This document shows positions 42,651 to 55,075 of a stretch of 64,000 nt of DNA, in pieces. The notes under the pieces are model-generated. The model was not told the origin of the DNA. It saw nothing but the letters and a program-made list of their open reading frames with translations, and made no database searches. This stretch comes from a phage: assembly GCA_011911785.1 (NCBI GenBank), contig GCA_011911785.1_4084.1. The stretch is one strand, 5' to 3'. The translations under genes were made by a program, and so were the position numbers. How positions within the stretch are numbered: the first letter of the stretch is position 1; every line of letters starts with the position of its first letter.

Positions 42651-42679
42651 AATAAATCGGTATATCTGTATTTACTAGG

Positions 42680-42707
42680 TAGACAAACTGAAAGAATGTG
42701 ATATAAT
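42680..42707 (+). promoter_or_regulatory. Sigma70-like promoter (TAGACA - 16 nt - TGaTATAAT)
   Basis: tagaca 42680-42685, tataat 42702-42707, 40 bp upstream of ClpA-like ATG; flanked by inverted repeat atgtgat/atcacat. Confidence 0.55.
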
Positions 42708-42746
42708 GATTTTAATGACAGTGAGAAGAATCACATAGGAGAGAAC

Positions 42747-45032
42747 ATGAATTTAACACAGCTATTCAAAAGCAGCGACGACCTTGCAACCTCTATGGGT
42801 CATACTTTCTTGACAATCGATCACATCAGTGCTACAGTGCTGACAGTGGATAGCATTATTGATGTATTTGGGACAATGAACGTTGACGCAACGAAAGTGC
42901 GTGATCGCTTGATTGAATATCTGAAAAATACCAATGTTCCACACGCACCACGCAGCACTATGGGGGAAGAAGTTAATCGCACTACACTAATCGTCAATCG
43001 TGTAATGCAAGAACTATCTAAGAAATCTGTCATCGAACAACTCAAACGTGACGATTTCTCAATTGATGCATTCTTTGTACTGTTTGAATGTTTGTCATTC
43101 CCAAACACTGCATTAGAAGCAGCATTGTTGGAAGAGGGTGTAACTCGTACTGAAGCGGCCCGTACTCTTCAGAAATATGTAGAATCTCTTGATTCTGAAA
43201 TTAACCTACAAAGCATCGCTGATGAACCTACTGGGGAGAAAAAGGTGGCTCAACAACAACCTGCATCAAAACAGAAATCAATCGAAGATTACACGACCAA
43301 CCTAACACAGTTGGCTAAAGATGGTAAACTGGACCCAATGATTGGTCGTCAAAAAGAACTGGACGCACTAATTGAAACTCTGGCTCGTAAAACTAAGAAA
43401 AATGCTATTCTGACTGGTGAAGCTGGTGTTGGTAAAACTCAGATTGTTGACGGTCTAGCACAAGCCATTGTTGATGGTAATGTACCAGAACATCTACAAA
43501 ACATTGAGATTTTATCTCTTAACGTTGGTGCACTAACTGCTGGTACTAAGTATCGTGGTGAATTCGAAGAACGTATTGATAATCTTCTCAAAGAACTGAA
43601 GAAACGTGAAAATACAATCGTGTTCATTGACGAAATCCATATCATGGTAGGTGCAGGTTCTGCAAGCAACGGTTCAATGGATATGAGTAACATGTTGAAA
43701 CCAGCACTATCTCGTGGTGAGATTCGTGTAATCGGTGCAACTACTTATGATGAATATCGTAAAAACATCGAGAAAGATAGTGCATTGACTCGTCGTTTCA
43801 TGAAAATTGACGTAGTTGAGCCAACTATTGAAGAAACTCGTGCGATTGTAAATGGTCTGCAAGGTACATATGAGAAATTCCATAACGTAACTTTCAGTAC
43901 TGAAGCAATGGATGCGATTGTGTCTTTGAGTGATAAGTTCCTGAAGAACAAACACTTCCCAGACAAAGCAATCGACCTTATGGATGCAGCAGCAGCTAAG
44001 AAACGTTCACGCGATGAATCTGATAATGTGATTTCACTACGCACAATTCAAGAAGTTGTTGCGGGAATTGCAAACTTGGATATCAACGTAGTAGCTTGTA
44101 CTGAAACTGAACGTATGAAGTCACTACCAGCAGCACTTCGTAGTCGTGTATTCGGTCAAGAAGAAGCAGTGGAGAAATTGGTTGATAACGTAATGGTTGC
44201 ACGTGCAGGACTTCGTGAGAAAGCAAGTGTTCAGGGTGCATTCATGTTTGTCGGTCCGTCTGGTACTGGTAAAACTGAAATCACTAAAGCACTAGCCGAT
44301 GCAATGGGTTCTGAACTGATTCGCTTCGATATGTCTGAATTTTCACAAGAACATACCGTTGCAAAACTAATTGGTTCACCTCCTGGCTATGTTGGTCACG
44401 ATACTGGTAATGGTCTGCTACTCGACAAAATTGAGCAATTCCCGAATGCAGTTCTACTGCTGGACGAAATTGAAAAAGCACACCCTAAAGTACTGCTAAC
44501 CTTCCTACAGGTTCTGGATGAAGGTCACCTAACTGGTTCACAGGGTAAAACTGTATACTTTAACAACGTAACAGTTATTATGACAACCAACTTGGGTGCA
44601 GCAGATGCAAATAAACGTAGTCTGGGTTTGAGTGGTGGTGAAACAGCACAGGAGAAGGCAGTGAAAGCTTTCCTACCACCTGAATTCCTAAACCGTATCG
44701 ATAGCATCGTGAAGTTTAATGAGCTATCCAGTGAAGCTATCCAGAGCGTTATTGATAAGTTCATGGCTGGTCTAAATGAGCAAATCAAAGAGCGTGGCGT
44801 GAAAGTAACACTGACTAAAGCGGCTCGTGAATGGTTAGAAGCAAATGGTGTTCAGCCTGGAATGGGTGCACGTCCAATGAAACGTACAATCGAGCAGAAC
44901 ATCCGTGTTCCTCTGGCTAAAGAAATGCTATGCGGTTCACTGGTAAATGGTGGTAACGTAACATTTGATGTGATTAACGGAAAGTTGGGTATCAAACCAA
45001 AACGTCAAGTTAAAACCCCATCTGTAGTGTAA
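42747..45032 (+). CDS. ClpA/Hsp100-family double AAA+ ATPase (761 aa)
   Basis: Clp N-domain-like repeats, D1 Walker A GEAGVGKT, D2 Walker A GPSGTGKT, sensor GARPMKRTIE, and LGL tripeptide where ClpA has the ClpP-docking IGL. Confidence 0.85.
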   Translation: MNLTQLFKSSDDLATSMGHTFLTIDHISATVLTVDSIIDVFGTMNVDATKVRDRLIEYLKNTNVPHAPRSTMGEEVNRTTLIVNRVMQELSKKSVIEQLKRDDFSIDAFFVLFECLSFPNTALEAALLEEGVTRTEAARTLQKYVESLDSEINLQSIADEPTGEKKVAQQQPASKQKSIEDYTTNLTQLAKDGKLDPMIGRQKELDALIETLARKTKKNAILTGEAGVGKTQIVDGLAQAIVDGNVPEHLQNIEILSLNVGALTAGTKYRGEFEERIDNLLKELKKRENTIVFIDEIHIMVGAGSASNGSMDMSNMLKPALSRGEIRVIGATTYDEYRKNIEKDSALTRRFMKIDVVEPTIEETRAIVNGLQGTYEKFHNVTFSTEAMDAIVSLSDKFLKNKHFPDKAIDLMDAAAAKKRSRDESDNVISLRTIQEVVAGIANLDINVVACTETERMKSLPAALRSRVFGQEEAVEKLVDNVMVARAGLREKASVQGAFMFVGPSGTGKTEITKALADAMGSELIRFDMSEFSQEHTVAKLIGSPPGYVGHDTGNGLLLDKIEQFPNAVLLLDEIEKAHPKVLLTFLQVLDEGHLTGSQGKTVYFNNVTVIMTTNLGAADANKRSLGLSGGETAQEKAVKAFLPPEFLNRIDSIVKFNELSSEAIQSVIDKFMAGLNEQIKERGVKVTLTKAAREWLEANGVQPGMGARPMKRTIEQNIRVPLAKEMLCGSLVNGGNVTFDVINGKLGIKPKRQVKTPSVV

Positions 45033-45041
45033 AAAAGAAAA

Positions 45042-45066
45042 GGAGAGCCAATGGCTCTCCTTTTTT
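45042..45066. terminator. Bidirectional rho-independent terminator
   Basis: Hairpin ggagagcc-aat-ggctctcc with A-run upstream and T6 downstream. Confidence 0.75.
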
Positions 45067-45067
45067 G

Positions 45068-48000
45068 TTATTGAATATTCAATAGATTTTCGATATCAGT
45101 TCCAGTAATTGACAATCCATTTCTGAATGTATCTAATGGAATTGGTGGATAGAAGTTTTGATATTGAGTAAACTTATCAATGCTCCCCAAGTTCAATCCA
45201 TTAAAGCTATAAGACGTTCCTTTAGTAAAATTATGTTCCGCACTATACATGACACCACGTAATAGACGGTCAGTGTTTCTTACCTGAACCTTCTCATATC
45301 CAACCACAATAATATCATCATTCTGTGCCGCAGCACCTGACAGTACTGAATCAGTAATGATATATGGGCTTATTGAACGAGGTTTAGCAACATAAGTGAT
45401 TGCCTCATCTTCAACGGTTGTAATGTTAATTACACTACATCCTACTTCTTTGATGAACGTGTTATTGACCACAGGTTGTGCATACTGCCACACGCGATCA
45501 TAACTTAGTACTGGTTGAATAACATCAACATCGTATTCAAATACAGTGATTTCAATACCATCAGTCATTTTAGCTCGTACTAGTTCACCCAGGACACCTT
45601 TACCAGAGATTGGCTGATTGTAACCATTATCAATTGTAATACCATCAACTTCAAAAATCTCATTGGAAACTAACCACAAATCAATTTCATCAGGTGTGAT
45701 ACCATCATTGAATTTACCACCATATAATGTTTCGTCATAGAATACTTCATAGTTCAATGCATGTATACTGTAATGACGATTATTTTCATATAGTTTAAGT
45801 CCATTGTCATCAAACTCAGGGTCTTGGAAAGTGCGGATTCTAACTAAGTTCATTGATAATGTATAAAAACGCTCATTACTTTCACGCTTAGTTATACTAT
45901 CAAACATTAACACTACACCATTACTATCAACCAACTCTACGTTACCATTACCCAATACACGTACTGTGTATAGTTTTGGTTTTTTAGAGGATTGGATTTT
46001 ACTAGCACTTAATATAGTTACCCAGTTACCGTCTTGGAATCGTACATAATCTTCACCATCTGGCGTGAAAATCATAACCTTATCACCATCTTTCAAACCT
46101 TCATCGTGAACTTTGATTTCAGTAATTGTTTTAATTTCTGAAATTGGGAAGAAGTATTTTTCAGATTCTTTGAACACATCTTTACCCATATTCTCAATGA
46201 CAATATCATATGATGGAATACTTACAACTGCTTCTGACATATTGTAAGGGTTTTGTACGATCATACCCTCAATCTGGAATCTACTTGTGTCTTTTAATTG
46301 CTCTTGAGCAACTTCATCGAAACCGTAACCATCAACAGTGAAACGTAATTGTGCCATTGTTCTTCCTGATGGGTTTAGTTCAGAAATGTCGATGATATAA
46401 GGATCAATCTCACTATCTTTAACTTCCCATTTAATGGATTTGGTTTGTGATTCCAATGCCAAGTTATCGAATGCATTCATATCATTGAAATATTTTGCAG
46501 TATTGATACTTTCCAGTACTTCAACATATGCAGAATACATTGGATTATTCTGGTCTTGTGGTAAATCATTTAAATCAATTTCAGCCAATACAACTGATTC
46601 TCCGGTTGTTATGAATAAGTCTTCCATGAAATCAGATATGCTGTAACTTTCAGGAATCGGTAGATATTCACCTGCCGCATTCACAACATACACATATTTC
46701 CTTGGCATCATAACAAAAGCATACTTATCAACTGCACGATTACTTAAGATTTCTCTAGCAACATAATAATGATCTAGAATATTCTTATTAAATGTTTGTC
46801 GCATTGCAGATAACACATGAACGGTATCAGAATAATAACGGTCATTTAATGTGGTATCATACTTGTAGCAATAAACACCATATTCTATCTCTAGTATATT
46901 ACGAACTTGGTCTTCATTAGTAAACTCAGGGTGATTTTTCTTGATCATATCGACATATTTTTCATATAGTTCAATACTAATCTCAAAATAACCATAGTTG
47001 TAATCACTACTTGCACTGAACCCAAAAGGTAGGCGAGTATTAGGATTATCATTATAGTTCGTACCCTTAAATGGACAACCAATCTCATTAGAAACCATGT
47101 CATCAGATATATTCTTAAACATTTTCACACGAGTTGCTAATGTATTGTATTGAATATATTTCTTAACGTCTTCTAAAATGTTACTGTTGTTTGTATCAGT
47201 AGTTACCTGCTCCAAATCAGCAGTAAATTGGTCAGTCATTGCAATATCAGTTGAATGGGCTTTATACCATGCATCAATTCCTTTAATGACACCATTACTA
47301 ATATCCAAATCTGAATATTTGGTAGTCATTTCAATACCAATCTGTGAAATTAAGGTATTATTATCATATTCAGGGAATGTATAAACATATCTCTGTAATT
47401 CATAATCATTTCCTATATCCGAAGCATTAGATTGATACTTACTATTGGTTGATTTCAACTCATCAATTGTATAATTACTATCATACGGGTCACATTGAAT
47501 ATTATCATAATGCATAATAACGTCGATTTCTTGGAATCGTCTGTTAGGTGTGATAAAGTCACTTGGTAGTGAACCAATCTTTTCCCAACGTTGGGTTACG
47601 TCATTAAATTGTGCATATTCTAAATCCCAAATGTCTTTTTCAGTCTTAACCCACACACCATCAACTAAAATATAGCCATCTGGGTCAAGGTCATTACTGA
47701 TACCATTAATCAAATCATCATCAGAAGTTTTCTGTTCTATTTGAGAACGGATTTTGGTTCTGTATGGTTTAACTTCTTCGAAGTACTCAACAATTTGATT
47801 AATCAAGTTGTCATTTGAGTAGTTTTGTACGAGAGATTGTTCTAAACCTACAATATAGATATATGAGGTTTTGAATACCCAGTCAACAACACTTTGTTCA
47901 GTGTGTACGTACTTAACCATATCAAAAACAATATTACTTTGATATAAGTTGAATGAATTTTTCAACAACGCTAACGCATTACGAACGTTAACCTCATGAG

Positions 48001-51000
48001 AATTCAAAGAACCATCATCATTGTAAACATTGTACCCAGAATATAACATTGAATTCAATTCAACTGTACTATTCTCACGTCCAATAGCTTTCCAGTATAT
48101 ATTATTACGAGATGCAGTCTTGATGTATAATGTCCAAACACCATCACTATCAGTTACACGGATAATATCACCAATTTGGTAATTTTTAGTGTTTGCGTCA
48201 TCTAAACTAACTTCTTGTGTATATTCAGTGTTGCTATCGTATCCAGTATCGTACCAATCAGCCAGATTCCAGTACTGGGTCATATCCAAAGATGTACCAA
48301 GTGATTCTATGAAGTCAGCTTGTTTAATCATCTTGTGTTGACCTTCACCTCTATTTTCTAGAGTGATTGTAACAGTACTTCCAACTGTACTTGGACTGTT
48401 CATCAATTGAATGTATCCATTTGGATCAATGTGAACAAAATATACTGAACTAGAAGATAATGGTGCTGGCAGAGTTCCGATGGAACTTACAAATACTGCA
48501 TCATTCTCTTTAAAGCGGTTATCTTCTGGTGCAATTACCAATTCATTGTTAAATGATAGAACACGGAATGTAATATCATTTGGGTTCATTTTTAATGTTT
48601 TCACATTAAACACATCATTCATAACAACACTGTTAGTTGTGATGTTCTGTGAACGGTAAAAGTTATTTGCACTCTCAACAAACGCACGACGAGCTTCAAT
48701 GACATTCTGGAACCAAGTTTTATTAGAACCTAAACCAGTTTCAACTTTAGGATAAATTATTTCATTTACAACACCAGTTGAAGTAGTTTCTTGACCAATT
48801 AGTGAGTTCCATAGTGAATTCCAAATATCTGGGTTAAAGTCATAACTATCACCTTCTTTACAGAGTTGATATTGATCATGCTTCAGTACTTCGATATTGT
48901 CATTTCTATATGAAATTGTCAAAATGCTTGTATCATCATTAACTTCAAATTGCATATTACTTAGAATGAAACTATTTTCATTAATAGGTGCAAACCAAGG
49001 AACATTCAATTGTGTTGGATCTTGAATAATACGTGCAATATCAGTACAAGACTTACTACGAGTAGTCATTGGTGGAACATAAATGGTATTACGAACCCAG
49101 AAATAATAACGAACTACATATGTATCAGTGATTGGATCATATTCCATAGATGAACTGTAGTTCTCATCCATTGCAATCCCACTTGGGAGATACATAGTAT
49201 TGTTTTTATTTTTATTGGCTTGTTCTGCACAATATTTTTCCCAGTTGTATGGTTCTACTGGTGAACTAACCCATTCTAGAACATCAATAACACTGTGTGG
49301 TAATAATTTACCCCAATTATAACGCTTATATTCATTAGTTGCTTTTACATCAACGTTACCATCCTCATCAAAGATTGGACGGGTATAATCCAGATAGAAT
49401 GCAGTGCTAGTGTTCCACCACACTTTACCTACCTTTTCAGCACCCCATGCTTGTAATAGTTCACCGTTACTGCTATACTGTGCTGGGTCCACTGGAGAGA
49501 TGAAATCAACATCTTGCATTGCAACCCCAGGAATAACACCGTTAATTGGGTCAAACACATTCAAATACAATGCAGTAATGTTTGTTCTTTCATCATACGT
49601 AGTAGGACGGTCAAACAAAGTGCTTTCAGGTGCACTGTAACTATATTTTTTAGCAATATATTCATCGCGTTCTTGTTGAGTACTAAATCTACTAACATAA
49701 CGATACAAACGTGGTGCTGATTCTACTGTTGAAAAGTCAATAGTAATGGAAGTGTCAAATGGCACTACCATAACTTTTGGATCTAGTCCAGAAGTGTAGT
49801 ATTGGCATTCATCACGTAGGGCATCAGGCATAAAGTTTGTTTCATCAACAAAATAATAATAATCACCATCATTGAGTGGGATATCATCAGACAATAGTAC
49901 TTTACAATATTGCTCAGCATATGGATCTTCACTTTCAATTGGTGTAATAGAAACCATTGTAATACCAGTATCTACTAAATCATACACATTCCATTCGTTA
50001 TTGATATCTTGGAACATCCAAACAGATGTTGGGATTTTACCAGAATTATTCATATAACTAATGCGGTCTTGATTTGCAGTTTCGTAATTTAATGTGGTAT
50101 AATCAATTTCATCTAGGGTTACTGGTCCAATATTAGGTAATTGGATATTCTCACTTCTCCCATTACGCATAGGGAATGAGAATTTACCTTTTGGACGACT
50201 AATCCAGCGTGAATCTTCACCAATTTCACCATAATATACAATTTCATTCTCAGATTCAACCTTATCGGAATAACGGTCAAACGTAATCATTTGTGGTTGT
50301 TGTTTAAACTCATTATTAATTAGTTTAAATTGAAGATTTTTAACACCATCAATGTTACCATAAGAACCAACACGGAATGCCCATTCTTGTAATGCTTTAT
50401 ACTCATCAGTATTATATGATTTAGATACACGTAATACTTTTTCTAGTACTTGGTTAGTGCCTTTATCATGAATAAAACCTTTATAGAAATCAATTCGACC
50501 AGGCTCATTAGTGATCATACGTTGTAAGTAATCACGAGACTGATAGCCAATTAAGTGGTTTGAAAGTTCATTTAATTGAACATCACTAACTGGGGTTTCA
50601 TTATCATAATACTGTTGGAAATTAGACACCAAAGTTTCAAATGATGGTAATGTACCAGCTTCTAGGATGATAAATCCAGGAGCTTGTAAACGTCCAGACC
50701 ATGAACCAGTGATATATCCATACAATTTAATCAATTCTTGAACTGCACCATAGGTTGGTTCATAGATATAATCACCGAAAATCGTCTGATCATCAAAAAT
50801 AACAGCATGTTCATAAGAACTGATACTTAAACGAATAAGTGCCATGCGTTTATTTGATTCTTCAGTTGTTCTTACCGTGAATATGTTACCAATACGAGAT
50901 GTTTCAATCTCAAATTGACGTATACCCTGGTTTGAATCATCTAACAATGACCAAACACCACCACTATTTTGTGCAATTGACTGTACTGAACCAAAATCTG

Positions 51001-54000
51001 TACCAAATTTAGCATTAATTGCTGATGGGGTACAAGAAATGAATTCACCAGTACTCAATTGTTGTTGACTCCAGATTAAAAAGTCTTTTGCAATTGTATT
51101 CCAGTCCTGTTGGATACCAGATTCATCAACTTCTTCAAAAATCCAACCATGTTGCTTGAGATACTCACCATAACCACAAATAAATGTGTAAACTTCCTGG
51201 AAGGTATTCATCAAAGTTCCGTAAGGAATGGATGCATCATTTTTCCACTCATTATAATGAACAACATTACGATTATCAACTTTCAAAGATACTTTATGAC
51301 CGTTTTTAACAGGCAATTTATAATTGAATGTTGCAGAAACTAAATCATAACCATCAATTTGGTAAGCACTACCAGTCCAAGTAATTTTAATTGCACTCAT
51401 TTGCTCATTTCTAATATTATTAGAACGAACTAAACCGATAGATTGGTTTTCTTGTGAAATTAGACCAGTTGCTTCTGATGTAAATGTTAATTGATCAGCT
51501 TTAGTGAATCCACCTAGTTTATGACCCACATTAATATGAGAAGAACGAACAATTTCACCGTACTTAGTTGTAATATTTTTGTTTTGATACATCAAATAAT
51601 CACTAACAATCATTTGATAACCAATAACGCGAGTACTATTCTCACCATGTACGATTGTATCACTATTAAAGTTCAAACGTAAACGAGTATCACCATATAA
51701 AAACTGTGGTTCATTACCAGATACAGTTTTTAATGTATTATTTCGGGTATCCCAGAAATAGTTTGTGAACTGTGCAGGTTTAGCTTTGAATAACATCAAT
51801 AATTCATCATATGCAAACATTGCTGTATTCATATAAGTGAATTCCATATCACCCATATCACCATAAGTCCACGGTTCAGCACGATGATTTAGACTACCAT
51901 ATACAAGACCTAAAACTTCAGGAGCAATGTACTCAATGACACAAATATCAACACCAGATGCTGTCTGCTTGCCTGTTTTAGTGATCTTAAATGGTTGTGT
52001 ACCAAAACGTTTGTACTTGTCATATTGACCTTTACGTGCACCAAACAAGATAGTACCAGTTGAGCTATCACCTTTCTCGTTACCAACGTCCCATAACCCA
52101 CTAGGAACCATGTTACCTTGTTCGTTGATAACTAATGCCTCATATACATAAACAACATCACCATCACGTTCGCCAACTTGAACTGCGGTAGGTTCATATT
52201 CCTGGTTCCACCAAACTGGACGTTGGGAGAAACCAAACATTTCCCACGGATGGGTTGCTGGGCGATATGTACCAAATTGGTCAGTGTAGATTGCTCGCCA
52301 TGAACCACGGGCTGCTATTTGTGTTTGTTGACCATTAACCATGTAATGTGTTCCAGTATAGTTCCAAGTCATCCAGTTATTTGGATCATAATCATGTGAA
52401 CTATTACTGATACCATTGGTTGCGATGAAGTTAATATAACCACGTAGTAGTAAGTTCTTTTTCTCTTCGTCATTATACTCTGTATCTCTGTAATACGGAG
52501 TTGGGAAAAGATCAGAAGCATCTAGCTTAGGTTGGTAATCTTCATCTTTGAAAATAACATCAATACTATTGAAAATTCTATTTTCTAACTCATATATAAC
52601 GTCATCCATTTTATCAACACCGTTTATTACACGGTATGCTTTAGTGATTGCACCTGTATGACTGATGTTATAACAGCTTTGCTTACTACCAGCATTCAAA
52701 AATGTTGCTTTTTCTGGAACGTGTGCTTTCAAAATACCCAAAAACTGTGGAGTTGGTGGTACAAACGCACGAATGAAGCCAGAAGTACTTGCTACGTTAT
52801 CATAATAGAATGGGAAAGTATTATCATGACCCATATTAATAATTGTTAGAATTTCATCAACAATATTAGAAGCATTATTAGCTAAGAAGTTTGCTGGGTT
52901 CTCATTGTACAAACGGATCATTTGTGTATTGAACTTGTTTACGAAACGGAAATATTCGGATTGCATAAACAATACAGATTCAAATAGGTCAATATCTTCA
53001 TTTGCAGAATGTGCCATTAACGGTAGCATTGATGCTTCGTTTTGAATAATCTTAGTACCAACGGAGTTATCCACTAATCCTTTAGACAAACGATCTTCGT
53101 AGTCGTTGAAATCATCAACGGAACCACTGGTGATATTCTTTTGAATGATATCTTTAAAATGTAATGTAAAATTACTTTGGTTGATATAAAGAATATTATC
53201 GTTGTATGGGTTATTTTGTAAGTTGATTGGGATTTCATATGCACCCAACTCTTTATTTGGTACTTCAGTACTGCTGTATGTTCTAATTTGAATCACTGAT
53301 TCATCTTTAAGAGCTACATCTTCACCTAAAGTGATGCTTTGAACCTTGTTATTATATACATGACGTGTATAATCGGTTACATCCACACCATCAACTTGAA
53401 TTTCAATGATTTCAGTACTCTTACCATCAATAATTTTCTGGGCCAATTCAAATGTGCGATTGAAACGTTCACTTTGAATACCTTCACCACTAATTACATG
53501 CCAATCCATATAGGTTTGACGTTCTTCTTTGTAATATTGATAGGTACGATCCACTTCAGTAACATATGCATACATACCTTCTAATGGATTTTTAAAGTTT
53601 TCCATTTCGAATACAGTATTGAATACACGATACATATCAGTGTGTTCTATTTGTGGCGTTTGTTTAACGAATTGCTTTGAATCTTCCTTAGAACGAACCC
53701 AATCGGTCTTAAGGTGTAGTTCATTATCTTTACCAACTACATTATAGTAGTACAATCCAGAAATTTCAGTTTCAACACCCAAATGATCATATGTATAACG
53801 AACACTTTGTAGGAAGTTTTCGTACATATAGTAATTATAATTACCTAGTTCGATATTATAACCATATACTTTATCAGTGCCGTAATTATAGTTGATTTTA
53901 AAACCAAATAGGGATGAACCAACAAAGTTACTTGATGGATAAATTGTAGAATCATTTAATTTAACACCATCACGGTCATATAATTGGAATTGTGGGAATA

Positions 54001-55075
54001 CGTTTACACCAGATTTTGTTTGTGCTCTAATCCAGTTAACACCATTCCAGTACATGGATGTATTTTTATATACATTACCATCACGCACCAAAATAACATC
54101 ACCATTATGTGGCTCACCACTTGGGCGGTCATCAGTTTCTTCATCTGGGTCCAATGCTAGACCATATGTGCGAGAACCATCTTGCATTTTCTTAATAAAA
54201 ACTTTATAAATGCGGTTGTTTTCACCAACGTTACCTATACTAGTGAAAAGAATACGCATACCATCTTGTGGAATAATCCCGTCAATACGAATACCATCAT
54301 TTACGTCTTTTTGGACGATATCTTCTGGTTTAATTGTATCAGAGAAAAGATCCACAACACCACGGAAATGTGTCCCGTAGTTAATTAATTCGATATTTTT
54401 ATTGTACTCGATGATTGGTGCTTGTGCACGAATAAAACGAGTATCTTGTGTCATGTCAGCAGTTAGTACTGTTCCATCTTCTAGTGTTTGACCAATAGTA
54501 TACCAAAAGTTCTGTAGGGACCATGTGTTTCCGTTATCAGCACCACGTTCCATAACAATAAAGTCAGGAGTTGTGATACCATAACTATTTTTACTATCCC
54601 ACAAATAGGAACTGTAGTTGGTCATTTTGTTTGGGTTAATTGGTGGTGTCCAAGAATAGAACTTACCAGAAAATAGACGGCTCTCGTTTGAAGTTAACGT
54701 GCCGTAGTGTTCCATGTAGCCAACCAAATCATCATAAAATTGAAGCGAACGAATGCTTGTGTCATCATTACGAGACACATATGCTGTTGATAATTGATAT
54801 AGCTGACGTTCAACGGTTGCTTCGTCAAGGAAAATCTTAGCAGATGCAGCAGGAGAACCCATATCACCAATATATCCATCAACGATTTCATTATCCGCTG
54901 GATTGAACCATTGTTGAATTACATCATCACTAACCTTTTGAATGTCTTCTAAGCCTTGCATCCATTCAGGTAATCTTTTAATGAAAAGCTTCTGTTGTAC
55001 TGCTTCTGCCGTTTTAGTTGGTAGAAACTTAAAATTATTAGTCATGTATAGGACTCCATAAATTCGTTCATTCAT
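45068..55075 (-). CDS. Giant protein (3335 aa), putative baseplate wedge/fibre-network component
   Basis: Single uninterrupted 10-kb ORF; follows gp25-like and 1154-aa genes in the baseplate operon order. Confidence 0.6.
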   Translation of the reverse strand: MNERIYGVLYMTNNFKFLPTKTAEAVQQKLFIKRLPEWMQGLEDIQKVSDDVIQQWFNPADNEIVDGYIGDMGSPAASAKIFLDEATVERQLYQLSTAYVSRNDDTSIRSLQFYDDLVGYMEHYGTLTSNESRLFSGKFYSWTPPINPNKMTNYSSYLWDSKNSYGITTPDFIVMERGADNGNTWSLQNFWYTIGQTLEDGTVLTADMTQDTRFIRAQAPIIEYNKNIELINYGTHFRGVVDLFSDTIKPEDIVQKDVNDGIRIDGIIPQDGMRILFTSIGNVGENNRIYKVFIKKMQDGSRTYGLALDPDEETDDRPSGEPHNGDVILVRDGNVYKNTSMYWNGVNWIRAQTKSGVNVFPQFQLYDRDGVKLNDSTIYPSSNFVGSSLFGFKINYNYGTDKVYGYNIELGNYNYYMYENFLQSVRYTYDHLGVETEISGLYYYNVVGKDNELHLKTDWVRSKEDSKQFVKQTPQIEHTDMYRVFNTVFEMENFKNPLEGMYAYVTEVDRTYQYYKEERQTYMDWHVISGEGIQSERFNRTFELAQKIIDGKSTEIIEIQVDGVDVTDYTRHVYNNKVQSITLGEDVALKDESVIQIRTYSSTEVPNKELGAYEIPINLQNNPYNDNILYINQSNFTLHFKDIIQKNITSGSVDDFNDYEDRLSKGLVDNSVGTKIIQNEASMLPLMAHSANEDIDLFESVLFMQSEYFRFVNKFNTQMIRLYNENPANFLANNASNIVDEILTIINMGHDNTFPFYYDNVASTSGFIRAFVPPTPQFLGILKAHVPEKATFLNAGSKQSCYNISHTGAITKAYRVINGVDKMDDVIYELENRIFNSIDVIFKDEDYQPKLDASDLFPTPYYRDTEYNDEEKKNLLLRGYINFIATNGISNSSHDYDPNNWMTWNYTGTHYMVNGQQTQIAARGSWRAIYTDQFGTYRPATHPWEMFGFSQRPVWWNQEYEPTAVQVGERDGDVVYVYEALVINEQGNMVPSGLWDVGNEKGDSSTGTILFGARKGQYDKYKRFGTQPFKITKTGKQTASGVDICVIEYIAPEVLGLVYGSLNHRAEPWTYGDMGDMEFTYMNTAMFAYDELLMLFKAKPAQFTNYFWDTRNNTLKTVSGNEPQFLYGDTRLRLNFNSDTIVHGENSTRVIGYQMIVSDYLMYQNKNITTKYGEIVRSSHINVGHKLGGFTKADQLTFTSEATGLISQENQSIGLVRSNNIRNEQMSAIKITWTGSAYQIDGYDLVSATFNYKLPVKNGHKVSLKVDNRNVVHYNEWKNDASIPYGTLMNTFQEVYTFICGYGEYLKQHGWIFEEVDESGIQQDWNTIAKDFLIWSQQQLSTGEFISCTPSAINAKFGTDFGSVQSIAQNSGGVWSLLDDSNQGIRQFEIETSRIGNIFTVRTTEESNKRMALIRLSISSYEHAVIFDDQTIFGDYIYEPTYGAVQELIKLYGYITGSWSGRLQAPGFIILEAGTLPSFETLVSNFQQYYDNETPVSDVQLNELSNHLIGYQSRDYLQRMITNEPGRIDFYKGFIHDKGTNQVLEKVLRVSKSYNTDEYKALQEWAFRVGSYGNIDGVKNLQFKLINNEFKQQPQMITFDRYSDKVESENEIVYYGEIGEDSRWISRPKGKFSFPMRNGRSENIQLPNIGPVTLDEIDYTTLNYETANQDRISYMNNSGKIPTSVWMFQDINNEWNVYDLVDTGITMVSITPIESEDPYAEQYCKVLLSDDIPLNDGDYYYFVDETNFMPDALRDECQYYTSGLDPKVMVVPFDTSITIDFSTVESAPRLYRYVSRFSTQQERDEYIAKKYSYSAPESTLFDRPTTYDERTNITALYLNVFDPINGVIPGVAMQDVDFISPVDPAQYSSNGELLQAWGAEKVGKVWWNTSTAFYLDYTRPIFDEDGNVDVKATNEYKRYNWGKLLPHSVIDVLEWVSSPVEPYNWEKYCAEQANKNKNNTMYLPSGIAMDENYSSSMEYDPITDTYVVRYYFWVRNTIYVPPMTTRSKSCTDIARIIQDPTQLNVPWFAPINENSFILSNMQFEVNDDTSILTISYRNDNIEVLKHDQYQLCKEGDSYDFNPDIWNSLWNSLIGQETTSTGVVNEIIYPKVETGLGSNKTWFQNVIEARRAFVESANNFYRSQNITTNSVVMNDVFNVKTLKMNPNDITFRVLSFNNELVIAPEDNRFKENDAVFVSSIGTLPAPLSSSSVYFVHIDPNGYIQLMNSPSTVGSTVTITLENRGEGQHKMIKQADFIESLGTSLDMTQYWNLADWYDTGYDSNTEYTQEVSLDDANTKNYQIGDIIRVTDSDGVWTLYIKTASRNNIYWKAIGRENSTVELNSMLYSGYNVYNDDGSLNSHEVNVRNALALLKNSFNLYQSNIVFDMVKYVHTEQSVVDWVFKTSYIYIVGLEQSLVQNYSNDNLINQIVEYFEEVKPYRTKIRSQIEQKTSDDDLINGISNDLDPDGYILVDGVWVKTEKDIWDLEYAQFNDVTQRWEKIGSLPSDFITPNRRFQEIDVIMHYDNIQCDPYDSNYTIDELKSTNSKYQSNASDIGNDYELQRYVYTFPEYDNNTLISQIGIEMTTKYSDLDISNGVIKGIDAWYKAHSTDIAMTDQFTADLEQVTTDTNNSNILEDVKKYIQYNTLATRVKMFKNISDDMVSNEIGCPFKGTNYNDNPNTRLPFGFSASSDYNYGYFEISIELYEKYVDMIKKNHPEFTNEDQVRNILEIEYGVYCYKYDTTLNDRYYSDTVHVLSAMRQTFNKNILDHYYVAREILSNRAVDKYAFVMMPRKYVYVVNAAGEYLPIPESYSISDFMEDLFITTGESVVLAEIDLNDLPQDQNNPMYSAYVEVLESINTAKYFNDMNAFDNLALESQTKSIKWEVKDSEIDPYIIDISELNPSGRTMAQLRFTVDGYGFDEVAQEQLKDTSRFQIEGMIVQNPYNMSEAVVSIPSYDIVIENMGKDVFKESEKYFFPISEIKTITEIKVHDEGLKDGDKVMIFTPDGEDYVRFQDGNWVTILSASKIQSSKKPKLYTVRVLGNGNVELVDSNGVVLMFDSITKRESNERFYTLSMNLVRIRTFQDPEFDDNGLKLYENNRHYSIHALNYEVFYDETLYGGKFNDGITPDEIDLWLVSNEIFEVDGITIDNGYNQPISGKGVLGELVRAKMTDGIEITVFEYDVDVIQPVLSYDRVWQYAQPVVNNTFIKEVGCSVINITTVEDEAITYVAKPRSISPYIITDSVLSGAAAQNDDIIVVGYEKVQVRNTDRLLRGVMYSAEHNFTKGTSYSFNGLNLGSIDKFTQYQNFYPPIPLDTFRNGLSITGTDIENLLNIQ

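What the first reader, a model, noticed from the sequence alone, without database searches (positions are those of the whole stretch)
42651..45066. Phage-encoded ClpA-like double-ring unfoldase as a stand-alone transcription unit
A 761-aa protein with a Clp N-domain, two AAA+ modules (GEAGVGKT; GPSGTGKT), sensor GARPMKRTIE and an LGL tripeptide at the position of the ClpA IGL loop that docks onto ClpP. It is the only + strand gene between two long - strand structural operons and has its own promoter and bidirectional terminator. No clpP or clpS is present in the window, which suggests it may use the host ClpP to redirect proteolysis.
Basis: partly seen in the sequence, partly recalled or inferred. 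Interest (0 to 1): 0.75.

Follow-up and report, generated by a model that had tools for sequence, protein, structure and literature searches.

The report
Jumbo-phage ClpA unfoldase with phage ClpP
This is a real, intact ClpA-type protein-unfolding motor already annotated in Rak2-like jumbo coliphages, and the same phage also carries its own ClpP protease and a ClpS-like adaptor elsewhere in the genome, so it need not borrow the host's ClpP.

Summary
It aligns end to end with E. coli ClpA, has no ClpB-type middle domain, and carries LGL exactly where ClpA has its IGL ClpP-docking loop. It has a sigma-70-type promoter and a strong bidirectional terminator. It sits convergent and divergent to late-type structural genes.

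The window is about 99.8% identical to Escherichia phage A4 (Asteriusvirus, 355 kb), where the gene is already annotated "ClpA-like protein". Papers note that ClpA is conserved across Rak2-like phages.

The inference that it uses host ClpP is undercut. Outside the window the phage encodes:
- one true ClpP with an intact Ser-His-Asp triad, about 90 kb upstream;
- a ClpS-fold adaptor, about 85 kb downstream.

All three genes occur in the same ~70 Rak2-like phage records, and all have sigma-70-type promoters. The ClpP docking pocket is remodelled across the clade (L114G, F82N/S, a conserved C-terminal tail), and the ClpA docking tripeptide varies between lineages.

Most likely this is the unfoldase of a dispersed, phage-encoded ClpAP(S) protease made before the late genes. 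Its substrates are unknown, and no binding or activity was tested. It is an already known feature of modest interest.

The parts
42680..42707 (+). Sigma-70-type promoter of clpA: -35 TAGACA (42680-42685), 16-nt spacer, extended -10 TGTGATATAAT (42697-42707)
   Evidence: A TGnTATAAT element is conserved upstream of clpA in 121Q, K64-1, GAP32 and CBB. An almost identical GTAGACAAA-N12-TGTGATATAAT precedes the phage clpP, and these are the only two exact TAGACA-N15-17-TATAAT sites found in the whole-genome scan. The scan did not cover the overlap windows at the locus joins. Of 59 sigma-70-like sites in the genome, 55 are on the plus strand.
42737..42741 (+). Ribosome-binding site AGGAG, 5 nt before the ATG
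   Evidence: Sequence read
42747..45032 (+). clpA-like CDS, 761 aa, 83.5 kDa (= A4_579)
   Evidence: TIGR02639 ClpA scores 762.6 bits (cut-off 993). E. coli ClpA 1ksf matches at E 1.7e-179.
42747..43196 (+). N-domain (residues ~1-150), a divergent Clp_N double repeat
   Evidence: 17.6% identity to the E. coli ClpA N-domain. Pfam Clp_N 19.1 bits, below the 20.7 cut-off. AF2 gives eight helices, with pLDDT 83-91 for repeat 1 and 53-88 for repeat 2.
43197..43286 (+). Flexible N-to-D1 linker (residues ~151-180)
   Evidence: pLDDT below 50 for residues 155-176. 11.5% identity to the ClpA linker.
43287..44081 (+). D1 AAA+ module: Walker A 43416-43439, KYRG pore loop 43548-43559, Walker B 43623-43640, RRF 43791-43799
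   Evidence: 51% identity to E. coli ClpA D1.
44082..44972 (+). D2 AAA+ module: Walker A 44253-44276, GYVG 44385-44396, Walker B 44454-44483, NRID Arg finger 44685-44702, sensor-2 GARPM 44865-44894
   Evidence: 46.5% identity to E. coli ClpA D2.
44622..44630 (+). LGL tripeptide (residues 626-628) at the position of the ClpA IGL ClpP-docking loop
   Evidence: Alignments. The predicted loop is flexible, with pLDDT below 50 for residues 623-630. The roles of the IGL loop and its pocket come from 10.1101/820209.
45036..45066 (.). Bidirectional intrinsic terminator shared with the convergent 3335-aa gene
   Evidence: -20.9 and -18.6 kcal/mol, z -5.6 on each strand, 0 of 200 shuffles as stable
42669..42674 (-). 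TAAATA late-type promoter motif of the divergent structural gene A4_578. This is context, not part of the clpA unit.
   Evidence: TAAATA lies 22-64 nt upstream of 12 of 14 structural genes examined, against 1.75% of 80-nt tiles in the window. It is absent upstream of clpA on its own strand.

Best explanation
The gene encodes an active ClpA-type hexameric double-ring unfoldase. It most likely serves as the ATPase of a phage-encoded ClpAP protease, rather than as a stand-alone hijacker of host ClpP.

Proposed mechanism:
1. The gene is transcribed from a sigma-70-type promoter, and so before or independently of the surrounding late structural genes.
2. The protein hexamerises and engages substrates through its divergent N-domain, probably helped by the phage's ClpS-fold adaptor A4_74.
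3. It threads substrates with the KYR and GYVG pore loops.
4. It docks through the LGL loop onto the phage's own ClpP, A4_455, which degrades them.

Shown here:
- The domain architecture and the intact catalytic motifs of all three proteins.
- Their co-occurrence across the Rak2-like clade.
- The shared promoter class.
- Absence of ClpA from two published virion proteomes.

Inferred, not shown:
- Hexamer formation.
- Which ClpP it binds.
- Expression timing.
- The adaptor role of A4_74.
- Substrate identity, which may be host proteins, phage early proteins, or misfolded giant virion proteins.
For: (1) The protein looks like an active ClpA.
- It is collinear with ClpA over its full length, and ClpA is the best match in NCBIfam and PDB.
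- All Walker, pore-loop, Arg-finger and sensor motifs are present in A4, and the common variants across ~110 phage-clade homologues are conservative.

(2) The phage has its own ClpP.
- A4 encodes exactly one detectable ClpP homologue (A4_455), no ClpX, and no second Hsp100.
- Pfam CLP_protease matches it over the full length at E 7.7e-42.
- The Ser-His-Asp triad is conserved in 65 of 65 clade members, and the N-terminal axial-loop residues P4, V6, E8, R15 and D18 in 64 of 65.
- It is closer to cellular ClpP (157 bits) than to the ClpP-related head-maturation model (52 bits).
- The phage has a separate prohead protease, A4_8, next to the scaffold and capsid genes.

(3) The phage has a ClpS-fold protein, A4_74.
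- A profile search against PDB hits only ClpS at E below 0.01; the best is E 1.4e-5.
- 14 of 15 family members match Pfam ClpS.
- With an AF2 model of pLDDT 84, the top 35 Foldseek PDB hits are all ClpS, with TM-score up to 0.91.

(4) The three genes co-occur. There are about 70 phage records with ClpA at >=60% identity, about 70 with ClpP at >=60%, and 72 with the ClpS-like protein. All 72 ClpS-like records carry host genera of the Rak2-like group, and the ClpA and ClpP hits at >=60% come from the same genera. ClpA and ClpP each hit 11 Pseudomonas phage records, including the PA5oct type.

(5) They share a promoter class.
- clpA and clpP in A4 carry near-identical GTAGACAAA-N12-TGTGATATAAT promoters.
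- The IF3/clpS-like operon has TTGACA-17-TACAAT.
- Neighbouring structural genes instead carry TAAATA late-type motifs.

(6) ClpA is not a virion protein.
- It is absent from the phAPEC6 virion list; gp246, equated with ClpA by gene order, is missing between gp245 and gp248.
- It is absent from the CBB virion list.

(7) The docking interface has diverged on both sides.
- The tripeptide varies between phages of enterobacteria: LGL, IGM, IGV, IGA/IGG, MNM/MSM, LGM/MGM.
- The phage ClpP pocket is changed clade-wide at contact residues named in 10.1101/820209: L114G in 62 of 65 members, and F82 replaced by N or S in 53 of 65.
- The phage ClpP also has a conserved ~20-aa C-terminal tail.
- This pattern fits a partner that evolves with the phage. 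That host ClpP is nearly invariant among these hosts was assumed, not checked.
Against: - No binding or activity data exist, either here or in the papers searched.
- The three genes are dispersed: clpP about 90 kb upstream and clpS-like about 85 kb downstream. They are not an operon.
- In GAP32 and CBB, clpP has no promoter of its own.
- Loss of L114 and F82 in the phage ClpP pocket could mean that it does not accept IGL-type loops at all.
- Some lineages have Gly or Ala at tripeptide position 3, or Ser or Asn at position 2. Docking may therefore be weak or lost in those lineages.
- A4 and 121Q have identical pocket residues but different tripeptides (LGL against IGM), so no clean covariation is seen.
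- clpA's position inside the tail and baseplate module is conserved across four genera, which could point to a morphogenetic role.
- A4's LGL is close enough to IGL that docking on E. coli ClpP remains plausible.
Confidence: 0.6

Rival explanations
1. One reading: the phage ClpA docks through LGL onto host E. coli ClpP and redirects host proteolysis. The phage ClpP would then do something else, for example form mixed rings with host ClpP or work with host ClpX or ClpA.
For: - LGL is a conservative variant of IGL at the aligned position.
- D2 is 46.5% identical to E. coli ClpA.
- The phage ClpP pocket lacks L114 and F82, so it might not be the loop's receptor.
Against: - The phage keeps its own catalytically intact ClpP in every lineage that has this ClpA.
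- The tripeptide drifts to IGG/IGA and MNM/MSM in relatives. The MNM form is carried by a Salmonella phage protein (P0044). That would be hard to reconcile with a host ClpP pocket that stays fixed, though host ClpP sequences were not compared here.
- clpA and clpP share a promoter type.
Confidence: 0.15
2. A ClpP-independent remodelling chaperone. The unfoldase acts alone, as ClpA does on P1 RepA, to fold, disassemble or hand over very large tail and baseplate proteins such as the adjacent 3335-aa protein.
For: - The arrangement of structural gene (-), clpA (+) and giant gene (-) is conserved in Asteriusvirus, Alcyoneusvirus and Mimasvirus.
- The phage also carries GroES-like and DnaJ-zinc-finger-like genes.
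- PMC7824862 suggests a role in virion assembly or as a translocase.
Against: - The promoter is of the sigma-70 class, not the TAAATA late type used by the structural neighbours.
- A hydrophobic-Gly-hydrophobic loop is kept in most lineages, which a pure chaperone such as ClpB lacks.
- ClpA co-occurs with ClpP and the ClpS-like protein.
Confidence: 0.15
3. A decoy or inhibitor. The phage ClpA or ClpS-like protein titrates host ClpS, ClpP or substrates, shutting down host ClpAP to protect phage proteins.
For: - The N-domain is highly diverged, at 17.6% identity.
- The ClpS-like protein has changed residues at the N-degron pocket positions: N34D, D36P, M40A, H66N in the alignment. The roles of those residues are recalled from memory.
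Against: Every ATPase and pore-loop motif is retained across the clade, and so is the ClpP triad. That is not expected for a passive decoy.
Confidence: 0.05

Closest known systems
E. coli ClpAPS (ClpA unfoldase, ClpP peptidase, ClpS N-degron adaptor)
   Same: - The domain order is the same: N-domain, linker, D1, D2.
- There is no M-domain.
- The KYR and GYVG pore loops are present, and the docking tripeptide is at the aligned position.
- The partner ClpP has an intact triad and a conserved axial loop.
- The adaptor has a ClpS-fold core.
   Different: - Overall identity is only 40.7% (N-domain 17.6%), and the protein scores below NCBIfam's ClpA equivalog cut-off.
- The tripeptide is LGL and varies within the clade.
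- The phage ClpP pocket has L114G and F82S/N, plus a conserved ~20-aa C-terminal tail.
- The ClpS-like protein has a predicted folded N-terminal region of about 65 aa in place of the short disordered N-terminal extension that E. coli ClpS needs (PMC9663308; model).
- Its N-degron pocket residues are altered.
- The genes are dispersed over about 175 kb.
ClpA/ClpP/ClpS/ClpX sets reported in other jumbo phages (Atu_ph07, PA5oct, Vibrio phages; PMC6102473, PMC7824862)
   Same: - These are phage-borne Clp components noted by comparative genomics.
[quoted passage not shown]
- Their function is untested.
   Different: - Those ClpA proteins are only 40-45% identical to this one, about as distant as cellular ClpA.
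- Atu_ph07 additionally has ClpX and ClpB. A4 has only the ClpA/ClpP/ClpS-like trio.
ClpB/Hsp104 disaggregases
   Same: They share N-domain, D1 and D2 homology.
   Different: There is no coiled-coil M-domain. The ClpB models match as two separate stretches, and the protein is about 100 aa shorter. ClpB also lacks a ClpP-docking loop.
ClpC-MecA-ClpP systems and multi-ClpP systems (ClpP1P2, P. aeruginosa ClpP2)
   Same: - They are double-ring unfoldases that dock on ClpP, and Foldseek cannot separate ClpA from ClpC.
- There is precedent for ClpP paralogues whose C-terminus lies over the docking pocket (PMC9823225).
   Different: - There is no ClpC-type short M-domain.
- Sequence identity is highest to ClpA (46-48% in D1-D2).
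- Whether the phage ClpP tail covers its pocket, or whether it mixes with host ClpP, is unknown.
Phages that exploit host Clp machines (lambda O with ClpXP, Mu with ClpX, P1 RepA with ClpA)
   Same: Clp unfoldases act on phage or plasmid proteins during the life cycle (partly cited in PMC6102473; the rest is from my own knowledge).
   Different: Those phages use host enzymes. This phage carries its own.

Membership tests
ClpA (Hsp100/Clp class I, ClpP-coupled) | Two tandem AAA+ modules with intact Walker A/B motifs, arginine fingers and sensor motifs | tested here: met
   Pfam AAA, AAA_lid_9, AAA_2 and ClpB_D2-small all match. The motifs are located and are kept across ~110 homologues, with only conservative variants among the common forms.
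ClpA (Hsp100/Clp class I, ClpP-coupled) | No middle (M) coiled-coil domain between D1 and D2 | tested here: met
   A single collinear alignment, residues 17-741 against ClpA 20-734. ClpB, ClpV, ClpK and ClpG models match only as two stretches. AF2 secondary structure shows no long coiled coil.
ClpA (Hsp100/Clp class I, ClpP-coupled) | [LIV]-G-[FL] ClpP-docking loop in the D2 module | tested here: met
   LGL at residues 626-628 aligns with I617-G618-L619. The motif is not uniformly kept in the phage clade, where IGM, IGV, IGG, IGA, MNM and MSM also occur.
ClpA (Hsp100/Clp class I, ClpP-coupled) | N-terminal Clp_N double-repeat domain | tested here: inconclusive
   Pfam Clp_N scores 19.1 bits, below the 20.7 cut-off, and covers one repeat only. 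Relatives do pass Clp_N (PF02861 is listed). AF2 gives 2 x 4 helices. Identity to the E. coli N-domain is 17.6%.
ClpA (Hsp100/Clp class I, ClpP-coupled) | Score above the curated equivalog threshold (TIGR02639 / NF008263) | tested here: not met
   762.6 bits against a cut-off of 993.15, and 653.5 against 1350. ClpA is the best-matching family, but this is a divergent member and not an NCBI 'equivalog'.
ClpA (Hsp100/Clp class I, ClpP-coupled) | Physical docking on ClpP and ATP-dependent degradation; binding of ClpS by the N-domain | not testable with these tools
   This needs biochemistry or multimer modelling. The structure tool here folds single chains only.
ClpB/Hsp104 | Long coiled-coil M-domain and no ClpP-docking loop | tested here: not met
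   See the ClpA rows above.
ClpP (partner A4_455, outside the window) | CLP_protease fold with a Ser-His-Asp triad and an N-terminal axial loop | tested here: met
   Pfam E 7.7e-42 over profile positions 2-179 of 182. The triad is conserved in 65 of 65 clade members and the axial-loop residues in 64 of 65. It is below the NCBIfam clpP equivalog cut-off (157 against 309 bits).
ClpP (partner A4_455, outside the window) | Canonical hydrophobic IGL/IGF pocket (L23, L48, F49, A52, F82, Y60, Y62, I90, M92, F112, L114, L189) | tested here: inconclusive
   The residue list comes from 10.1101/820209. A4 has M, V, W, S, S, T, Y, V, M, L, G and I at those positions. L114G and F82N/S are clade-specific.
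ClpS (adaptor A4_74, outside the window) | ClpS alpha/beta core fold | tested here: met
   The profile search against PDB hits only ClpS at E below 0.01, best E 1.4e-5. The Foldseek top 35 hits are all ClpS, with TM-score up to 0.91 and rmsd 1.1-1.9 A. A4_74 itself is below the Pfam cut-off (20.3 against 23 bits), but 14 of 15 relatives match.
ClpS (adaptor A4_74, outside the window) | Conserved N-degron pocket residues and a short disordered N-terminal extension | tested here: not met
   The aligned positions read D, D, P, T, A, N where E. coli ClpS has N34, D35, D36, T38, M40, H66 (alignment; residue roles recalled from memory). Residues 1-65 are predicted to be folded, whereas PMC9663308 describes a disordered extension.

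The most novel reading that the evidence does not exclude
Rak2-like jumbo phages carry a private, orthogonal ClpAPS machine.
- The unfoldase-peptidase docking interface has been rebuilt on both sides. On ClpA the tripeptide varies between lineages. On ClpP the pocket has L114G and F82N/S, and there is a conserved C-terminal ...KRRxGxxEW[VI] tail.
- As a result, phage ClpA and phage ClpP would assemble with each other but not with host ClpP, ClpA or ClpX.
- A ClpS-fold adaptor with a changed N-degron pocket and extra domains would retarget the machine to specific host proteins, such as defence or stress factors, or to phage early proteins, before late gene expression.
Probability: 0.25. Interest if true: 0.7.

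Novelty: already known. Interest (0 to 1): 0.3.

Why it matters
As it stands, this is a correctly recognised and already annotated gene.

Its value is as a pointer. A whole clade of 350-kb coliphages maintains a complete but dispersed Clp unfoldase-peptidase-adaptor set that nobody appears to have tested biochemically.

If the set is a self-contained degradation machine with its own docking code and adaptor, two things would follow:
- It would be a tractable example of a virus importing regulated proteolysis to reshape the host or its own proteome.
- It could supply orthogonal ClpAP parts for targeted protein degradation in E. coli.

If it merely supplements host proteostasis during assembly of very large virions, it is ordinary.

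Tried and rejected
1. Covariation between the docking tripeptide and the ClpP pocket.
   - An IMG/VR scan with the ClpA alignment returned only two Rak2-like loci among 80; the rest were ~37-46% identical ClpA relatives. Pairing by contig was therefore impossible.
   - Pairing nine genomes by organism name or matching contig length gave no clean covariation. A4 and 121Q share identical pocket residues but have LGL and IGM.

2. The exact T4 late promoter TATAAATA is depleted in the window, with 2 found against 8.2 expected. The shorter TAAATA core proved to be the enriched element.

3. Two further annotated 'protease-like' genes were checked as possible extra ClpP subunits.
   - A4_467 shows only a weak partial match to the ClpP N-terminal half, including SPGG (hhalign probability 36%; NCBIfam E 0.003).
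   - A4_469 shows none.
   - Neither is treated as part of the system.

4. The Foldseek search with the full-length model does not discriminate ClpA from ClpC or ClpB. The family assignment rests on sequence and architecture.

5. Literature searches found annotation-level mentions only. They turned up no functional, transcriptomic or interaction data for the Rak2-like Clp genes.

6. The generic promoter scan is not enriched over shuffles in this AT-rich region, with 21 found against 18.5 expected. The promoter call therefore rests on position, conservation in four other genera and the strand bias of consensus sites across the genome.

7. A 'head maturation protease' role for the phage ClpP, as RefSeq and PHROGs label it, was rejected for three reasons.
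   - A T4-type prohead protease sits next to the scaffold and capsid genes.
   - ClpP was absent from the phAPEC6 virion proteome and gave a single peptide in CBB.
   - It scores far better against cellular ClpP models.
Full report
**What is there**

The window holds one long plus-strand ORF at 42747-45032: ATG start, 761 aa, 83.5 kDa.
- GEAGVGKT at residues 224-231
- GPSGTGKT at 503-510
- GARPMKRTIE at 707-716
- LGL at 626-628

Pfam finds AAA, AAA_lid_9, AAA_2 and ClpB_D2-small. The best NCBIfam model is ClpA (TIGR02639), at 762.6 bits over residues 3-741. That is below the curated equivalog cut-off of 993. The ClpB, ClpV, ClpK and ClpG models match only as two separated stretches.

Against PDB sequences the top hit is E. 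coli ClpA (1ksf, E 1.7e-179). It aligns as one collinear stretch, residues 17-741 against 20-734. There is therefore no M-domain. LGL aligns column for column with I617-G618-L619 of ClpA.

An AF2 model built on 37 homologues has mean pLDDT 78. It shows:
- eight N-terminal helices in two sets of four;
- a disordered linker at residues 155-176;
- flexible pore loops;
- a flexible loop at residues 623-630, as expected for a docking loop.

Identity to E. coli ClpA differs sharply by domain:

| Region | Identity to E. coli ClpA |
|---|---|
| N-domain | 17.6% |
| D1 | 51% |
| D2 | 46.5% |
| Overall | 40.7% |

Pfam Clp_N falls just below threshold on this sequence (19.1 against 20.7 bits). It is detected in close relatives.

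**Transcription unit**

A 108-nt divergent intergenic region precedes the ATG. It contains TAGACA-16 nt-TATAAT with an extended -10 (TGTGATATAAT) at 42680-42707, and an AGGAG ribosome-binding site.

The generic promoter scan is not enriched over shuffles in this AT-rich DNA. The promoter call therefore rests on three other observations:
- A TGnTATAAT element sits at the same place upstream of clpA in 121Q, K64-1, GAP32 and CBB.
- Across the A4 genome, 55 of 59 sigma-70-consensus sites lie on the plus strand, which carries most of the non-structural genes.
- The structural neighbours carry a different element. TAAATA lies 22-64 nt upstream of 12 of 14 structural genes examined, against 1.75% of 80-nt tiles in the window. 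It is absent upstream of clpA on its own strand.

Downstream, a hairpin at 45036-45066 folds at -20.9 kcal/mol on the plus strand and -18.6 kcal/mol on the minus strand. The z-score is -5.6 on each, and U-runs follow on both sides. It is shared with the convergent 3335-aa gene.

The upstream minus-strand run, however, is only three genes long.

**Origin and prior knowledge**

The region is 99.8% identical to Escherichia phage A4 (ON286972, Asteriusvirus, 355,528 bp). There the gene is A4_579, 'ClpA-like protein'. Forty-one phage records match at the DNA level. [quoted passage not shown]

Attai et al. (PMC6102473) state that ClpA is highly conserved in most Rak2-like phages. Iyer et al. (PMC7824862) list ClpA, ClpX, ClpP and ClpS among jumbo-phage genes and suggest translocase or assembly roles.

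I found no functional study. The feature is therefore already known at the annotation and comparative-genomics level.

**The key correction**

I fetched the rest of the A4 genome. Two relevant genes lie outside the window.

*A4_455, a ClpP (nt 88155-88850, about 90 kb upstream, 231 aa)*
- It is a full-length ClpP: Pfam CLP_protease E 7.7e-42, and the best NCBIfam models are ClpP.
- It has Ser, His and Asp in the canonical motifs.
- Across 65 phage-clade homologues the triad is invariant. The N-terminal axial-loop residues that contact unfoldases are conserved in 64 of 65.
- It is distinct from the T4-type prohead protease A4_8, which sits beside the scaffold and capsid genes.

*A4_74, a ClpS-like protein (nt 263162-263707, 181 aa, 'protease adapter protein')*
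- Alone it scores just under the Pfam ClpS threshold.
- A 15-member family profile hits only ClpS chains in the PDB at E below 0.01; the best is E 1.4e-5.
- 14 of 15 family members match Pfam ClpS.
- An AF2 model (pLDDT 84) gives ClpS for the top 35 Foldseek PDB hits, with TM-score up to 0.91.

tblastn with E. coli ClpP, ClpS, ClpX and the phage ClpA against the whole genome finds one ClpP, no ClpX, and no second Hsp100. It did not detect the divergent ClpS-like gene.

In the GenBank phage collection the three genes track each other:
- about 70 records with ClpA at >=60% identity;
- about 70 records with ClpP at >=60% identity;
- 72 records with the ClpS-like protein.

The organism-name counts are near-identical for the three searches. 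ClpA and ClpP each hit 11 Pseudomonas phage records. The statement 'no clpP/clpS in the window' is true, but it reflects only where the window ends.

**Co-regulation hint**

In A4, clpP is preceded by GTAGACAAA-N12-TGTGATATAAT. This is almost the same promoter as clpA. These are the only two exact TAGACA-N15-17-TATAAT sites found in the whole-genome scan. About 0.8 would be expected by chance anywhere in the genome, by my own estimate from base composition. Each of the two sits just upstream of its gene's start codon.

The IF3/clpS-like pair has TTGACA-17-TACAAT.

In 121Q the -35 elements of clpA and clpP differ. In GAP32 and CBB, clpP has no promoter of its own. The conserved point is therefore the promoter class, not the exact sequence.

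**Docking interface**

The ClpAP cryo-EM paper (10.1101/820209) names the pocket residues that receive IGL: L23, L48, F49, A52, F82, Y60, Y62, I90, M92, F112, L114 and L189.

In the phage ClpP clade:
- L114 is Gly in 62 of 65 members, against Leu in 39 of 43 cellular hits.
- F82 is Asn or Ser in 53 of 65 members, against Tyr or Phe in 36 of 43 cellular hits.
- A ~20-residue C-terminal extension (GPRNEKGQYLVKRRGGVEEWV in A4) is conserved next to the pocket strand.

On the ClpA side, the tripeptide varies between lineages:

| Tripeptide | Lineage |
|---|---|
| LGL | A4 type (8 sequences) |
| IGM | 121Q type |
| IGV | RaK2 |
| IGA, IGG | unnamed metagenome/assembly sequences |
| MNM, MSM | Salmonella SE_PL type |
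| LGM, MGM | GAP32, Erwinia and related phages |
| VGF | XaC1 |

These phages infect enterobacteria. I assumed, without checking, that host ClpP is nearly invariant among them. If so, this drift fits a partner that evolves with the phage better than it fits host ClpP.

This is an inference. Nine genome-matched pairs gave no clean covariation. The pocket changes could equally mean that docking is altered or weak.

**Not a virion protein**

- The phAPEC6 virion proteome lists gp244 (baseplate wedge), gp245 (the 382-kDa giant protein) and gp248. It does not list gp246, which I equate with ClpA by gene order, and no Clp protein appears in it.
- The CBB virion proteome lists ClpP with a single peptide (4.5% coverage) and no ClpA.

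**Mechanism I commit to**

This is an active ClpA-type unfoldase expressed from a sigma-70-class promoter, and so not with the late genes. It works with the phage's own ClpP as a ClpAP protease. Substrate choice is shaped by its divergent N-domain and the ClpS-fold protein A4_74.

A4_74 differs from E. coli ClpS in two ways:
- It has a predicted folded N-terminal region of about 65 aa, where E. coli ClpS has a short disordered extension that must enter the ClpA pore (PMC9663308; model).
- It reads D, D, P, T, A, N where E. coli ClpS has N34, D35, D36, T38, M40, H66. The roles of those residues are recalled from memory.

So I would not assume classical N-end-rule specificity.

My confidence is about 0.9 that it is a functional ClpA-type unfoldase, and about 0.6 that phage ClpP is its main partner. 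The substrates are unknown.

The rivals are host-ClpP hijack (0.15), a ClpP-independent assembly chaperone suggested by the conserved position beside the giant tail/baseplate gene (0.15), and a decoy (0.05).

**Verdict**

The feature is already known, and interest is modest (0.3). The most novel reading still open is an orthogonal phage-private ClpAPS machine with a rebuilt docking code and a retargeting adaptor. I give that about a 0.25 probability.

Noticed in passing
window 45068-55075 (-): A 3335-aa ORF (A4_580, 'structural protein') lies convergent with clpA and shares its terminator. Its 382-kDa homologue gp245 is a detected virion protein in phAPEC6. The arrangement of structural gene (-), clpA (+) and giant gene (-) is conserved in 121Q, K64-1, GAP32 and CBB.
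   Followed up: partly
window, 22-64 nt upstream of structural genes (for example 42669-42674 on the minus strand, ahead of A4_578): A TAAATA core, resembling the T4 late promoter, precedes 12 of 14 structural genes examined, yet occurs in only 1.75% of 80-nt tiles in the window. The exact TATAAATA is depleted, with 2 found against 8.2 expected. This is probably the late promoter of this phage group, which encodes a gp55-like late sigma factor (A4_588).
   Followed up: partly
L003:39155-39850 (phage A4 nt 88155-88850), outside the window: A phage ClpP with an intact triad, a remodelled docking pocket (L114G, F82S) and a conserved ~20-aa C-terminal tail ending EEWV. RefSeq and PHROGs label it 'head maturation protease', although a separate T4-type prohead protease exists.
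   Followed up: yes
L006:14644-15707 (phage A4 nt 262644-263707), outside the window: A phage-encoded translation initiation factor IF3 homologue (Pfam IF3_N plus IF3_C) lies 14 nt upstream of the ClpS-fold gene, apparently as a two-gene operon behind a TTGACA-17-TACAAT promoter.
   Followed up: partly
L003:46219-46824 and L003:47227-47829 (A4_467, A4_469), outside the window: Two more 'protease-like' annotations lie about 7 kb from clpP. A4_467 has a weak partial match to the ClpP N-terminal half, including an SPGG motif (hhalign probability 36%). A4_469 has only a 20-bit HslV-like match. Their nature is unresolved.
   Followed up: partly
phage A4 genome, L002-L008: Other proteostasis-related genes are present: two GroES-like co-chaperones (A4_23, A4_86) and a DnaJ-type zinc-finger protein (A4_448). 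There is also a run of seven paralogous 'DNA condensation' (RCC1-like) genes at nt ~345.9-354.6 kb.
   Followed up: no
IMG/VR loci L017-L096: 270 viral contigs in IMG/VR encode ClpA relatives. Only two of the best 80 are Rak2-like (59-61% identity). The rest are ~37-46% identical, either separate phage lineages carrying ClpA or host contamination.
   Followed up: no
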